A stretch of DNA of 63,948 nt, the filler included, from Chrysochromulina tobinii (taxonomy: Eukaryota): the NCBI GenBank assembly GCA_001275005.1. It is 5 parts of 5 records of this genome, joined end to end, with 100 filler letters (N's around TTAATTAATTAA, not from the genome) between each part and the next. Parts side by side here need not be neighbours in the genome. Positions count along the whole stretch, not along the records: positions 1 to 16,459 come from JWZX01000475.1; 4 more parts are not named here. One strand, 5' to 3'. Shown here one piece after another: positions 3,014 through 9,111 of this stretch. The translations under genes were made by a program, and so were the position numbers. How positions within the stretch are numbered: position 1 is the stretch's first letter; every line of letters begins with the position of its first letter. Under the pieces are notes generated by a model. It did not search any database, was not told the DNA's origin, and was given only the letters and a program-made list of their open reading frames with translations.

Positions 3014-6000
3014 ATGCTAGGCCAGCTGAGCTTGCCGCCGACGCTCGATCTGAAGCCTCATGACTTTCGCGAGCTGTGGCGCGAGAAGAAGAGCGCGCAC
3101 CTCCAAGGCACGCGCGAGTGGGCCTTTGCCGAGATCCTCAAGTGGCTCGACGACCCGGCGTCGCCGCAACTCTTCTGGCTGATGGGTGGCGGTGGCACCG
3201 GCAAGACGGTGCTCACGGCTGAGCTCCTAGAACGTGTCATCGAACGTACCGTCGCCTGGCACTTTTGCCGCCATGACAACCCGGCGCAGTCGGCGCCTGG
3301 CTCGCTGCTCCGCAGCCTGGCCGCCATGCTCGCACACCGGCTCCCGGGCTACAGGGAGAAGCTTGAGGCCACGGGGTTACCAGGGGAAGCGGTGGACGAC
3401 CCCGCGGAGCTCTTCAAGGCGCTCTTGGAGAGGCCGCTGCTCGTCTCGGAGGTCCAGGCGCCCGAGAGGCCGCTGCTTGTCATCATCGACGCGCTCGACG
3501 AGCTGCCCAAGGAGTCGCAGAAGCCGCTGCTTGATGTCATCGCCATCCAGCTCTCTCGGCTGCCGCCGTGGCTCAAGCTCTTCGTGACGTCGCGTGAGGA
3601 GCCCCAGATCAAGAGGGCGCTCAGCAGCTTCAAACCCAAAGAGCTGCGCGCCGATGAGGCCAAGAACAGGGCCGACGTCGAGGTCAAAGAGCTGCGCGCC
3701 GATGAGGCCAAGAACAGGGCCGACGTCGAGGTGTACCTGCGCACGATCGCGCGCCAGCACATCAAAGGCGAGGCGAACATCGCCAATATTGAGGCTGCTG
3801 TCAAGCTCAAGTATGGCATTGACATGAAAGGTAAGCTTGCAGGCCTGCAGACGCCCATGGATTTGTCCAAGGCCGTCTACGCCAAGGTGCGTGAGAAGTT
3901 GAGGACGGAGGAGGGCTACGAGAAGCTCATCGCAGAGCCGGAGAAGCGCAACGACAACCTCGTGCAAGTGTCGGACGATTTGGACACCGTCCATGTGAAG
4001 CAGGCGCCCGAGGCGCAGAAAAAGCTCGAGTTGCTCATCGCGGACAAATGGGAGGCGGACCCAAACAAGGCAACGCTCCGCCATCCAGTCCAGGGGACGG
4101 CAAGAGCGTGGGTCGAGTTTGCTGACTCGCCGGGTATCAAAAAAGAGCCACGGGTGTCTGAAAAGATGAAGAACGACTACGGTGGCCATGCCAACAAGCT
4201 CAAGGACCTCGCGCGGCTCACCCTGCGCTTCAGCTCCTGCTCGCGCATGGCACACGCGATTGCCGAGGGGCTCCAGGGGGCGGACATCGAAGTGCTCACG
4301 CTCAAGAATAAGTACGCCTCGCCGACGCCGATGGGCTACTCCGACTTCAACTTGTGTGCCGGCGTCGTGCTTTCGGATGGCACGAGGTATGTGTGCGAGA
4401 TCCAGCTCAACCACATAGCCATGCTCAAGGCAAAGGATGAGGCGCACGTCTATTACGAGGCGGTCCGCAAGGAGCTGCCAGCCCTGTGCCAGGGCAGAAT
4501 GGTCAATGACGGGGAGCTCACGGATTTTATCGTTGGCCGCCTGAGCACGTCGTCCTTGGACGCTGCTGTCGAGGCACTCTCGGCCGAGGCGGAGGGCCTC
4601 TTCTTGTACGCCTACATGCTCGGCCAGCACCTCGAGAGCGAGGCCAAGAAACAAGGCCACTCGATTCACTTCAAGAACCTCGACTCGCTCCCGGCCGGCC
4701 TGATGGGCGAGGTGTACGCCGTCAACTTCAAGCGCGCCTTTCCCAAGGGTCAGGTCGACCCCGCGTGGACCGAGGCGAAGCCCTTCGTGCAGCTGATTGC
4801 GGCAGCACGCGAACCGATCACGGTGGCAATGGCGGCGGCGCTCCTCGGATGGGACGATGGGCAGCAGGGGCGCGTGCTTGAGACGACGGCGCTCCTCTTT
4901 CCGGTGCGCGATGACAAGGTTCATGTCTTTCACAAGACCATCGTCGACTGGCTGACGGGCGAGATCACCGAAGGCAGCTCGATCAGAGAGCCATCGGCGG
5001 AGTTCAAGGTGCAGCGCAACGACGGGCACGCCATGCTCGCCGAGGGGTTCATCGCGTCGCGCACCGCGACACCACCCGAAGGCCGTGCCCTGGACGAATG
5101 GGCAACGTACTATTGGCTGCAATATGGCATTTCACACCTCTGTCGTGCCAATGGCCAGGGCGCGAAAGCTGCCCGCGTGTTTGCGACCGACCTTGCACTA
5201 CTCCGTGAACGCGTTGATAGAGGCCTTCTCCCGTGCGTGGCTAAGGACTACCTTGAGCTGAAAAGTGTGGAAGGTGTGGACCTGACAGACGCGATCGAGA
5301 TGTGGCAATTTGTGTGCAAGTCCAGGGACGTGCTGCAGCGTGACAAGGGCGCGGCAGTGATGCAGCTCGCCCTACAGCAGCCAGATGCAAGTGCGGTGTT
5401 TCGTGCAGGAATACGTGCAGCCTATTCGCAACTAGTGACGGTGCGTGCACTCATGTCGCGTCATTTCAATGTGGTCGCTGGCCAGTGCAGGGTCGCTGGT
5501 GACCGCGATCGTTTCGGCAATGTAAAAGGCAACCACAACGATCTCGGCCGCGACGGCGCCTTTGAGGGCTCAGTTATTGGTGTGATCCAGCTGTACTCCA
5601 GTGCTAAATTCGATTTCAGCCTGCCTCGTACAGCGCTGGAGGAGAAGGGGTTCCGGATCAAACTCGAGAGATCTGTTCCGCGTGACATGAAGGCATTCTT
5701 GGCTGACTGCACGCAGCTGTGGGTGATCTCCACCTCTGTAGTGCAGTTCAACGCTGAGCAGCTTGCCGGGGTGAAAGCCTTCTGGGACAGTGGCAAGGGG
5801 GTTGCCATCTGGGGCGACAACGAGCCTTATTACGCGGACGCCAACGCGATCATGCAGGCCATGCTGCCAGGTACCTTTACGGTGATGCACGGCAATGTGC
5901 GAGGCGGCAAGCAGGTTCAGCCGAACTCGACTGGCTCCGGTCCGGGCTTCCCACAGCATCTCGTCACGACTGGAATCGAGAATCTCTACGAGGGCAATAC

Positions 6001-9000: not shown

Positions 9001-9111
9001 GGCGGCGCATTCTATGCGCCGAGCCCGATCTCGTGTTTGGCTGTGAGTTGGCCGAGGATTGCAGCCGGCGCACAGTCAGGGGAGCTGTACCACCTCGAGG
9101 CGATGCTGTGA
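3014..9111 (+). CDS. NACHT-WD40 NLR-like protein with an inserted RelA/SpoT-like domain and a second integrated domain; 9 exons, ~1857 aa
   Basis: Walker A GGGGTGKT, Walker [11 protein letters not shown], sensor-1 FVTSRE and HD1 motif GLFLYA. Exons 3014-6254, 6321-7442, 7505-7726, 7792-7920, 7986-8114, 8182-8310, 8378-8506, 8572-8700 and 8768-9111 splice in frame through GT-AG phase-1 introns (5574 nt including the stop). Confidence 0.88.
4673..7131 (+). repeat. Intragenic duplication of the post-NACHT helical region (copy 1 ~4673-5460, copy 2 ~6344-7131)
   Basis: About 460 bp are nearly identical ([19 protein letters not shown]...[13 protein letters not shown]), and homology continues at lower identity to RALM.R. 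Confidence 0.95.
7443..8893 (+). repeat. Tandem intron+exon array encoding seven WD40 repeats (~194-196 bp period)
   Basis: Five 129-nt exons plus two longer ones, each encoding a copy close to [43 protein letters not shown], separated by 62-67-nt mutually homologous introns. Confidence 0.95.

What the first reader, a model, noticed from the sequence alone, without database searches (positions are those of the whole stretch)
3014..9111. Eukaryotic NLR-like receptor with a RelA/SpoT alarmone-synthetase domain built into its NACHT switch
Seen in sequence: the NACHT NTPase starts ~30 aa from the N-terminus, so there is no classical N-terminal effector. Between sensor-1 and the HD1 motif GLFLYA there is a ~260-aa insertion. 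Its core (4130-4480) reads [17 protein letters not shown]...LKDLARL...[17 protein letters not shown]...[22 protein letters not shown]. Established knowledge: RelA/SpoT synthetase domains carry K...EK, D..(G)R, Y....GY, EIQ and H..Y in this order. Small alarmone synthetases make (p)ppGpp or (p)ppApp or pyrophosphorylate tRNA, and toxSAS enzymes such as CapRel act in phage defence. NACHT-WD40 proteins such as fungal HET-E are non-self receptors. Inference: this is an algal immune receptor in which ligand binding by the WD40 propeller switches on a nucleotide-messenger or toxin enzyme, possibly against giant viruses or bacteria. I do not know of a characterised eukaryotic NLR with this architecture.
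Basis: partly seen in the sequence, partly recalled or inferred. Interest (0 to 1): 0.93.

Follow-up and report, generated by a model that had tools for sequence, protein, structure and literature searches.

The report
Algal NLR with built-in alarmone synthetase
This expressed gene of a haptophyte alga encodes an immune-receptor-like protein that has a domain with the predicted fold of bacterial alarm-nucleotide-making toxins inserted into the middle of its on/off switch, a layout found in many algal proteins, so sensing a foreign molecule likely switches on an enzyme that would drain ATP or raise an alarm signal in the cell.

Summary
Observation confirmed. 3014-9111 is an intact, transcribed 9-exon gene (1857 aa; apart from 16 extra residues it is identical to Chrysochromulina tobinii KOO52869.1, annotated only as 'het-e'). 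A ~264-aa module splits helical domain 1 of the NACHT ATPase. Its core folds as a RelA/SpoT synthetase (pLDDT 95; top 11 structural hits all RSH enzymes). The best solved sequence match is the (p)ppApp toxin Tas1/Apk1, whose active-site variants it shares. Catalytic Asp and Glu are kept in 89 and 90 of 91 diverse homologues. The insertion sits at the same place in a large family (Chrysochromulina, Prymnesium, a diatom, many metagenomes) with WD40, ankyrin or other repeats; the WD40 units vary at five sites, HET-E style. Corrections: fungal NLRs with an N-terminal RelA_SpoT domain are published (uncharacterised); most relatives have N-terminal extensions with a myristoylation-like motif that this copy lost; this copy also has a duplicated WHD-HD2 and a domain captured from a vWA/alpha-kinase gene. 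Activity, product and immune role are untested. No paper found describes the intra-NACHT form. The scan noted a bacterial two-gene analogue, not this architecture.

The parts
3014..9111 (+). Whole gene, 9 exons, 1857 aa NACHT[RSH]-WHD-HD2-X-WHD-HD2-WD40
   Evidence: Removing 8 GT-AG phase-1 introns gives one open frame; 1841 of 1841 aligned residues identical to KOO52869.1, which lacks residues 1066-1081
2976..3020 (+). Relic of the lost N-terminal extension; now an out-of-frame short upstream ORF overlapping the start ATG
   Evidence: Sequence; homology to paralogues stops at about 2990, and the three paralogues aligned have ACG where this copy has ATG 3014; paralogues have 29-314 codons from the first Met of the open frame to residue 12, this copy 11
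3107..3748 (+). NACHT nucleotide-binding domain and first HD1 helix; intact Walker A, Walker B, sensor-1
   Evidence: Pfam NPHP3_N E=1e-27, NACHT E=2e-6; model pLDDT mostly 80-95
3637..3732 (+). Exact 48-bp tandem duplication (16 aa) before HD1 helix 1, private to this copy
   Evidence: absent from the other 42 proteins aligned
3761..4552 (+). Inserted module (residues ~250-513): helical arm plus synthetase, splitting HD1
   Evidence: AAA+ NBD-lid modules align across model residues 27-565 with ~230 aligned residues at ~4 A rmsd, so the split lid re-forms around the insert
3974..4492 (+). RelA/SpoT-type synthetase domain with Apk1/Tas1-like active site (K376, R380, K384, D398, R401, Y442, N446, E462, Q464, H478)
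   Evidence: VIA Z 12.9 SAS2, 11.7 RelP, 10.7 Tas1 at 28% identity; profile vs Tas1 E=3e-11; conservation; covered by 0-mismatch RNA contigs 4364-4517
4553..5460 (+). HD1 second half (GLFLYA), winged helix and Apaf-1-like HD2, copy A
   Evidence: Pfam APAF1_C E=3e-6; profile hits Apaf-1 E=2e-8
5462..6200 (+). Captured domain X (no Pfam family; GIFT/GATase-like by language-model features), replacing the first WD40 blades of copy A
   Evidence: 93% identical to the middle domain of a vWA-X-alpha-kinase protein P0223; atlas leads; present only in this locus among the 46 loci tested; RNA contigs bridge both junctions
6201..6320 (+). Relic WD40 piece read partly out of its old frame, with a 5-nt deletion that returns to frame, then intron 1 (6255-6320)
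   Evidence: splicing of this intron not observed
6344..7131 (+). Duplicated WHD-HD2, copy B
   Evidence: 728 of 772 nt identical to copy A
7132..9111 (+). WD40 sensor array; 129-nt phase 1-1 exons each holding one repeat; introns 7443-7504, 7727-7791, 7921-7985, 8115-8181, 8311-8377, 8507-8571, 8701-8767
   Evidence: intron 7443-7504 spliced GT..AG in an RNA contig

Best explanation
The gene encodes an algal NLR-type receptor whose NACHT lid domain carries an inserted RelA/SpoT-fold domain that is likely an active nucleotide pyrophosphokinase, likely held off in the resting state and switched on when the variable WD40 repeats bind a foreign ligand. Shown: the architecture, the predicted fold, conserved catalytic residues, transcription, a diversifying repeat array and a multi-copy family with pseudogenes. 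Inferred: ligand binding opens the STAND switch (nucleotide exchange, rotation of NBD-HD1 against WHD-HD2, oligomerisation). Because the enzyme hangs off HD1 by a helical arm formed from both ends of the insert, this movement would be passed to it directly instead of to an N-terminal effector. The released enzyme would transfer pyrophosphate from ATP to a purine nucleotide 3'-OH, most likely making (p)ppApp (or mixed A/G products), draining ATP and arresting or killing the infected cell. Most relatives are predicted to be anchored at a membrane by an N-terminal myristate; this copy has lost that signal and has instead taken in a host-derived domain that could act as bait.
For: Fold: ranks 1-11 of 48,161 chains are all RSH synthetases. 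Closest solved sequence is Tas1/Apk1. With a +21 offset in the, 56 alignments, R401, N446 and E462 fall on Apk1 R330, N370 and E382, named as active-site residues in PMC12691689 (passage); D398 matches the DxxR aspartate whose substitution inactivates SaEAS (same passage). In 91 non-redundant cores D398 is kept in 89/91, R401 88/91, E462 90/91, Q464 86/90, K376 83/85, K384 87/89, H478 85/90. Synthetase dN/dS 0.38 among 9 paralogues, like WHD (0.30) and HD2 (0.33). Immune-type evolution: 44 distinct WD40 units have pN 0.54 at five positions vs 0.036 elsewhere and pS 0.28, resembling the NWD pattern (PMC4986451 passage); intact and frameshifted paralogues coexist; C-terminal repeat type varies (WD40, ankyrin). 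A NACHT gene is strongly up in virus-resistant G. huxleyi (PMC12489294 passage; not shown to be of this family). Nearest prokaryotic loci include a phage head-module gene and lie near HD-motif ORFs, as for Apk2 toxins (PMC10083569 passages).
Against: No activity data for any member. The motif set does not fix the product: SaEAS has the same DxxR/N/ExQ pattern and prefers guanylate acceptors. By Z score the top hits are (p)ppGpp SAS enzymes, not Tas1. Both canonical adenine-stacking arginines of Rel are replaced (G374, T403), as in Tas1, and the Apk1 K353 equivalent is not clearly placed. The same synthetase also occurs without a NACHT, fused to EF-hands, Roc, G-alpha, UBC and a transporter, which suggests signalling uses and shows an NTPase is not required. 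No hydrolase or antidote was found among 31 window ORFs scanned. The five variable WD40 sites were chosen after inspection, so this is not a formal selection test. This copy is rearranged and 5'-truncated, and its dN/dS against paralogues is higher (synthetase 0.51, arm 1.23).
Confidence: 0.5

Rival explanations
1. Active and NACHT-coupled, but the product is a low-level second messenger for non-immune signalling (prey, nutrient or calcium cues), not a toxin.
For: A well-supported sister clade of 9 proteins (100/99) fuses the same arm+synthetase to EF-hand, Roc, G-alpha, UBC and BCCT domains; several NACHT members have N-terminal EF-hands; family transcripts are present in ordinary culture RNA.
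Against: Hypervariable WD40 sites, repeat-number variation (3-12 repeat hits per locus, some contigs cut) and pseudogene turnover fit a recognition arms race better than housekeeping signalling.
Confidence: 0.2
2. The enzyme pyrophosphorylates an RNA end (tRNA 3'-CCA), like CapRel/FaRel2, and blocks translation.
For: CapRel is among the structural hits (Z 9.5); toxSAS of this type act in phage defence (PMC11245113 passages); the helical arm could bind RNA.
Against: CapRel aligns at only 10% identity and FaRel at Z 5.3, against 28% for Tas1; shared motif variants are those of Apk1/SaEAS, which use free nucleotides.
Confidence: 0.12
3. The family works as in the best explanation, but this copy is decaying or has changed role (for example a sensor-only partner with a bait domain).
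For: Lost N-terminal extension and lipid-anchor motif; new ATG under an overlapping out-of-frame ORF; private 16-aa duplication; duplicated WHD-HD2 with a foreign domain between; raised dN/dS. No copy-specific RNA contig over the start codon or intron 1 in 4 runs.
Against: All three new junctions keep the frame, one only through a 5-nt deletion; all catalytic and Walker residues are intact; three alleles with 1-9 substitutions are open over 1094 aa; RNA contigs with no mismatch cover the synthetase core, both domain X junctions and a spliced WD40 intron.
Confidence: 0.12
4. The RSH domain is an integrated decoy or nucleotide-binding sensor, not a catalyst.
For: Integrated domains in NLRs are often baits (general knowledge of plant NLR-IDs); an earlier unchecked scan note reports alarmone synthetases in giant viruses related to haptophyte viruses (e1-5460515).
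Against: Near-invariant catalytic Asp/Glu/Lys/Arg across 91 cores down to ~30% identity; one fixed insertion site in haptophytes and a diatom.
Confidence: 0.06

Closest known systems
Fungal NLRs with N-terminal RelA_SpoT (RELA_SPOT-NACHT-WD40; Dyrka et al. 2014, PMC4986451; also PMC10197012, PMC12258605)
   Same: Eukaryotic NACHT-WD40 receptor paired with an RSH synthetase domain as presumed direct effector
   Different: There the domain is N-terminal and meets Pfam PF04607; here it lies inside HD1, scores below the Pfam cut-off and has an Apk1-like site. Whether the two synthetases are related was not tested. Neither is characterised.
Podospora HET-E / NWD family
   Same: NACHT plus similar, reshuffled WD40 repeats with a few hypervariable positions
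   Different: No HET domain; internal enzyme; each repeat on its own symmetric exon; repeat identity 81% on average, just under the 85% HiC criterion
Tas1/Apk1 and Apk2 (p)ppApp synthetase toxins; SaEAS
   Same: Best solved sequence match; shared KxxxRxxxK, NDYxG, DLARxT, GYxxxN and EIQxN variants; no hydrolase domain
   Different: Those are secreted or phage-linked bacterial toxins neutralised by immunity proteins or hydrolases; here the domain is embedded in a eukaryotic STAND ATPase with an extra helical arm, and the product is unknown
CapRel SJ46 fused toxSAS anti-phage system
   Same: One polypeptide combining sensor and RSH toxin domain; activation by ligand (inferred here)
   Different: CapRel modifies tRNA, has no NTPase, and is distant (10% identity in the structural alignment)
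Bacterial NLR-related (bNACHT) and Avs proteins
   Same: STAND sensor coupled to an enzyme; alarmone synthetases are listed among bNACHT effector classes (bioRxiv 2022.07.19.500537, passage); Avs3 is a structural hit for the STAND part (Z 13.6)
   Different: Effectors there are described as appended domains; no prokaryotic NACHT with this insertion appeared in my genome or viral scans (low sensitivity)
Plastid RSH enzymes of algae (PMC6881373)
   Same: RSH synthetase fold in algae
   Different: Long hydrolase-synthetase enzymes targeted to the chloroplast; that survey's main text has no mention of NACHT or WD40

Membership tests
RSH synthetase (SYNTH) domain | RelA/SpoT nucleotidyltransferase-like fold | tested here: met
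   Model pLDDT 94.7; ranks 1-11 all RSH, Z 12.9 rmsd 3.9 over 150 residues for SAS2; Foldseek E 2e-5
RSH synthetase (SYNTH) domain | Mg-binding Asp and catalytic Glu, acceptor-stacking Tyr, phosphate-binding Lys | tested here: met
   D398, E462, Y442, K376, K384 present; 89/91, 90/91, 73/91 (Trp in 12), 83/85, 87/89
RSH synthetase (SYNTH) domain | Pfam PF04607 gathering score | tested here: not met
   No hit for this copy; 6 of 44 family members hit weakly, best E 3.6e-4; three Prymnesium members 21-23 bits vs cut-off 27
RSH synthetase (SYNTH) domain | ATP-dependent pyrophosphate transfer | not testable with these tools
   Needs an enzyme assay
Apk1/Apk2 (p)ppApp synthetases | Apk1-type active-site residues (R330, N370, E382, neighbouring Gln) | tested here: met
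   R401, N446, E462, Q464 align; K353 equivalent unresolved
Apk1/Apk2 (p)ppApp synthetases | Adenylate-specific acceptor | not testable with these tools
   Same motifs occur in the dual-specificity SaEAS
Apk1/Apk2 (p)ppApp synthetases | PAAR or MuF delivery domain and adjacent immunity gene | tested here: not met
   Domain sits in a NACHT protein; neighbours are a methyltransferase and a Clp ATPase
NLR / STAND NACHT receptors | NACHT NBD with Walker A/B, HD1, WHD, HD2 and C-terminal repeats | tested here: met
NLR / STAND NACHT receptors | N-terminal effector domain | tested here: not met
   NBD starts at residue 32 in this copy; relatives have variable extensions
NLR / STAND NACHT receptors | Ligand-induced oligomerisation and immune output | not testable with these tools
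   Experimental
NWD / HET-E | WD40 repeats of high internal conservation (85% over 100 aa) | tested here: inconclusive
   Five exon repeats 79-86% identical, mean 81%; 86% nt matches per 194-bp unit
NWD / HET-E | Diversifying selection at a few positions per repeat | tested here: inconclusive
   Five positions pN 0.54 vs pS 0.28, sites picked post hoc, no likelihood test
NWD / HET-E | HET domain (for HET-E proper) | tested here: not met
   No HET hit on the two frames holding the N-terminus and helical domains
Fungal RelA_SpoT-NLRs | RelA_SpoT domain N-terminal to the NACHT | tested here: not met
   Domain lies inside HD1
Fungal RelA_SpoT-NLRs | Common origin of the synthetase domain | not tested
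   No fungal sequence came back from my searches to place in the tree

The most novel reading that the evidence does not exclude
A widespread, undescribed class of algal immune receptors wires an Apk1-type (p)ppApp synthetase directly into the lid of the NACHT ATPase, so that pathogen sensing triggers cytosolic ATP-draining or alarmone signalling in a eukaryote; the module is mobile, has escaped into other signalling proteins, is membrane-anchored through a ubiquitin-cleavage-exposed myristoylation signal, and in this copy has just captured a host domain as bait.
Probability: 0.4. Interest if true: 0.93.

Novelty: new variant of a known kind. Interest (0 to 1): 0.8.

Why it matters
Alarmone synthesis in eukaryotes is known from chloroplasts, and (p)ppApp only as a bacterial toxin product. 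If these proteins are active, bloom-forming haptophytes and diatoms have a non-plastid alarmone or ATP-depletion pathway under NLR control. That would be a concrete, testable candidate for the poorly known antiviral cell-death machinery of algae. It would also be a new way of building an NLR, with the effector inside the lid domain instead of at the N-terminus. The domain falls below the Pfam cut-off, which would explain why these genes are annotated only as 'het-e' or 'WD40 repeat-like'.

Tried and rejected
Pfam, NCBIfam, PHROGs and PADLOC do not name the insert in this copy; rejected as evidence against, given profile and fold matches. Idea that the insert is an intron or a neighbouring gene: rejected, it is in frame, conserved at one site and covered by RNA contigs. 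Idea that the gene ends at 6298 or is a pseudogene: a frame through 8 introns exists and matches the public annotation, but splicing of intron 1 was not observed; no cover at 6291-6461 or 2871-3041 in 4 runs is not evidence of absence. Laying RNA contigs at 90% mostly caught paralogues and was not used for this copy. No whole genome was held, so paralogue number per genome and presence of a cytosolic hydrolase could not be checked. Prokaryotic NACHT with this insertion: none among 1 genome locus and 2 viral loci returned, a pattern-limited search. Trees do not resolve deep nodes or the donor: single origin of the NACHT forms is not rejected (AU p=0.19; with the nested NTPase-less group p=0.47) but not shown; P0151 and P0212 were left out as long branches, fragments and rows over 85% identical were dropped. 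Codon-model runs gave no readable omega. Complex prediction of synthetase with HD2-WD40 was not available. Literature: 10 searches found no description of the intra-NACHT form or of this algal family; the RSH survey supplement (PMC7229694, file 1 cut when stored) had no KOO52869 or KOO30400 and listed only Rsh1/Rel/SpoT types for Emiliania. Subscription papers and bioRxiv supplements were not searchable and may mention it. PMC3417536 and bioRxiv 2026.03.27.714854 gave nothing relevant in the passages returned.
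Full report
Gene and observation. One frame is open from 2939 to 6298 with the first ATG at 3014. Eight GT-AG introns of 62-67 nt, all phase 1, lie in WD40-derived sequence; removing them gives a 1857-aa protein ending at 9111. 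It is identical over 1841 of 1841 aligned residues to KOO52869.1 'het-e' of Chrysochromulina tobinii, whose model lacks residues 1066-1081. Pfam finds NPHP3_N/NACHT at 32-206 and APAF1_C at 698-798, and nothing in the insert. RNA contigs at 99% likeness from 4 runs cover 4364-4517, 4990-5355, 5380-6031 and 6088-6241 without mismatch, and one skips 7443-7504 (GT..AG); the intergenic bin 2871-3041 has no cover in any of the 4. So this copy is transcribed and spliced; the start codon and intron 1 were not covered.

The insert is an RSH synthetase. Alone it hits Tas1 at E=7e-4; a 44-sequence profile hits Tas1 at 3e-11, YwaC at 2e-5 and two streptococcal SAS proteins. The AlphaFold model (pLDDT 94.7, pTM 0.90) gave RSH synthetases in ranks 1-11 of 48,161 chains (SAS2 Z 12.9, RelP 11.7, Tas1 10.7 at 28% identity, CapRel 9.5 at 10%), then a drop to 5.6. 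In the 799-residue model, AAA+ NBD-lid modules (ORC5, Cdc6, TnsC, MuB) align over residues 27-565 with about 230 aligned residues at about 4 A, and SAS enzymes over 320-493: the lid (HD1) is split and re-forms, with the enzyme looped out on a helical arm built from both ends of the insert. Among 91 cores under 90% identity, K376, K384, D398, R401, G441, D444, E462, Q464, H478, Y481 and R485 are kept in 94-99%. The site is Apk1-like: where canonical SAS have GRxK..S, DIAGxR, GYxSxH and EIQxR, this family and Tas1 have xxK...R, DLARxT, GYxxxN and EIQxN. With a +21 offset, R401, N446 and E462 match Apk1 R330, N370 and E382 (PMC12691689, passages). The same passages show that SaEAS, with this pattern, makes both (p)ppApp and (p)ppGpp, so the product cannot be read from sequence.

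Family. A search of 1.84 billion cluster representatives gave 903 hits at E<=0.001 and 193 at 1e-10. Of the best 150, 14 show NBD and HD1 on both sides, 41 one NACHT side, 23 another context and 72 are uninformative fragments; the insert is 241-308 aa wherever both flanks are seen, apart from one degenerate copy. Named members with the full arrangement: C. tobinii (KOO52869.1, KOO30400.1, KOO24680.1), Prymnesium parvum (4 proteins), the diatom Proboscia alata (a transcriptome protein), plus C. parva fragments. C-terminal repeats are WD40, ankyrin or other propellers; N-terminal additions include EF-hands, ubiquitin-like and endonuclease/phosphatase domains. Two NTPase-less clades exist: 8 proteins nested among NACHT forms, 7 of which show the lid helix that follows the insert in the best match and the eighth in a second match, and 9 fusions to EF-hand, Roc, G-alpha (a choanoflagellate), UBC and BCCT domains. 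Nearest prokaryotic loci (35-38%) are a phage head-module gene and a mobile bacterial gene, each near an ORF with an HD motif, which I recognised by eye. The trees neither show nor reject one origin.

Immune-type evolution. Of 43 metagenome loci, at least nine distinct intact Chrysochromulina-type copies (91-98% nt) and several frameshifted ones were recovered. Pooled pairwise dN/dS over 9 copies: NBD 0.22, synthetase 0.38, arm 0.76, WHD 0.30, HD2 0.33; pairs are not independent. Forty-four distinct WD40 units from 11 loci are nearly fixed except at five positions (pN 0.54 vs 0.036; pS 0.28); identical unit series recur in different loci. This parallels the NWD genes of Podospora (PMC4986451, passages).

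What is special in this copy. It lacks the N-terminal extension: 29 of 42 relatives with a long enough N-terminus have RxRGG/GxxxS or MGxxxS (shuffles: mean 0.4, max 4), which I read from memory as a ubiquitin-type cleavage site exposing a myristoylation signal; in Prymnesium a Pfam ubiquitin domain directly precedes it. This copy has a private 16-aa duplication, a second WHD-HD2 (94% nt), and domain X, 93% identical to the middle domain of a vWA-X-alpha-kinase protein and found elsewhere with vWA, DnaK-like and HEAT domains. X occurs in only this locus of 46. All three new junctions keep the frame, one by a 5-nt deletion, which favours selection for the long product, but dN/dS against paralogues is raised.

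Mechanism. I commit to a STAND-gated nucleotide pyrophosphokinase acting as immune effector (0.5). Shown: architecture, predicted fold, conserved site, expression, diversifying sensor. From established STAND biology: ligand-driven opening and oligomerisation. Inferred: that this movement releases the enzyme, that the product is (p)ppApp or mixed, and that the outcome is ATP loss and arrest. Rivals: non-immune second messenger (0.2), tRNA modification (0.12), this copy decaying or sensor-only (0.12), decoy (0.06).

Novelty. [quoted passage not shown] So the pairing is known. Ten searches found no report of the intra-HD1 insertion or this algal family; the algal RSH survey PMC6881373 has no NACHT or WD40 mention in its main text. 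Other papers were seen as passages only and one as a supplement search. The scan's notes hold no look-alike by sequence; two unchecked notes on a bacterial two-gene NACHT+RSH pair and on a giant-virus synthetase are leads only. Verdict: real, new variant of a known kind, interest 0.8.

Noticed in passing
P0002-P0015, P0039, P0049, P0204-P0206 N-termini; loci L002-L015: Most relatives carry RxRGG followed by GxxxS, or start MGxxxS: a possible ubiquitin-type cleavage that exposes a myristoylation signal (29 of 42, shuffles max 4). In Prymnesium a ubiquitin domain precedes it.
   Followed up: partly
P0051, P0059, P0064, P0066, P0068, P0075, P0088, P0092: NTPase-less clade nested among the NACHT forms; keeps lid-helix remnants next to the synthetase and is fused to LRR, ankyrin or HEAT-like repeats.
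   Followed up: partly
P0129, P0135, P0143, P0149, P0158, P0173, P0184, P0186, P0189: Clade of arm+synthetase fusions to G-alpha (choanoflagellate Didymoeca), Roc GTPase, EF-hands, ubiquitin-conjugating enzyme and BCCT transporter: a possible undescribed eukaryotic alarmone signalling family.
   Followed up: partly
window 5462-6200; P0223-P0280: Domain X is an unnamed, conserved, mobile domain (GIFT/GATase-like by features) fused to vWA, alpha-kinase, DnaK-like, HEAT and ubiquitin-like domains in bacteria and protists.
   Followed up: partly
L016, L018-L022, L030, L031, L033: Frameshifted paralogues; L016 joins the upstream neighbours of intact locus L004/L007 to the downstream neighbours of pseudogene L020 (recombination or misassembly).
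   Followed up: no
L044 3563-4486 and 6479-7000; L042 5647-6702 and 4551-5081: Phage head-module and mobile bacterial synthetase-like genes, each with an HD-motif ORF nearby (read by eye), resembling Apk2-Aph1 arrangements.
   Followed up: no
P0156, P0099: Tandem synthetase copies in a 3127-aa eCIS-core/calpain protein, a probable polymorphic toxin.
   Followed up: no
window 27459-29915: Two adjacent tandem arrays: ~125-bp unit (5 copies) and 94-bp unit (17.6 copies, 89% matches).
   Followed up: no
window 19-2802: Upstream gene: OB-fold plus Methyltransf_32 protein whose transcript ends near 2850-2865, about 150 bp before the NLR start.
   Followed up: no
window 51251-52552: PNGase A family gene (Pfam E 7e-63).
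   Followed up: no
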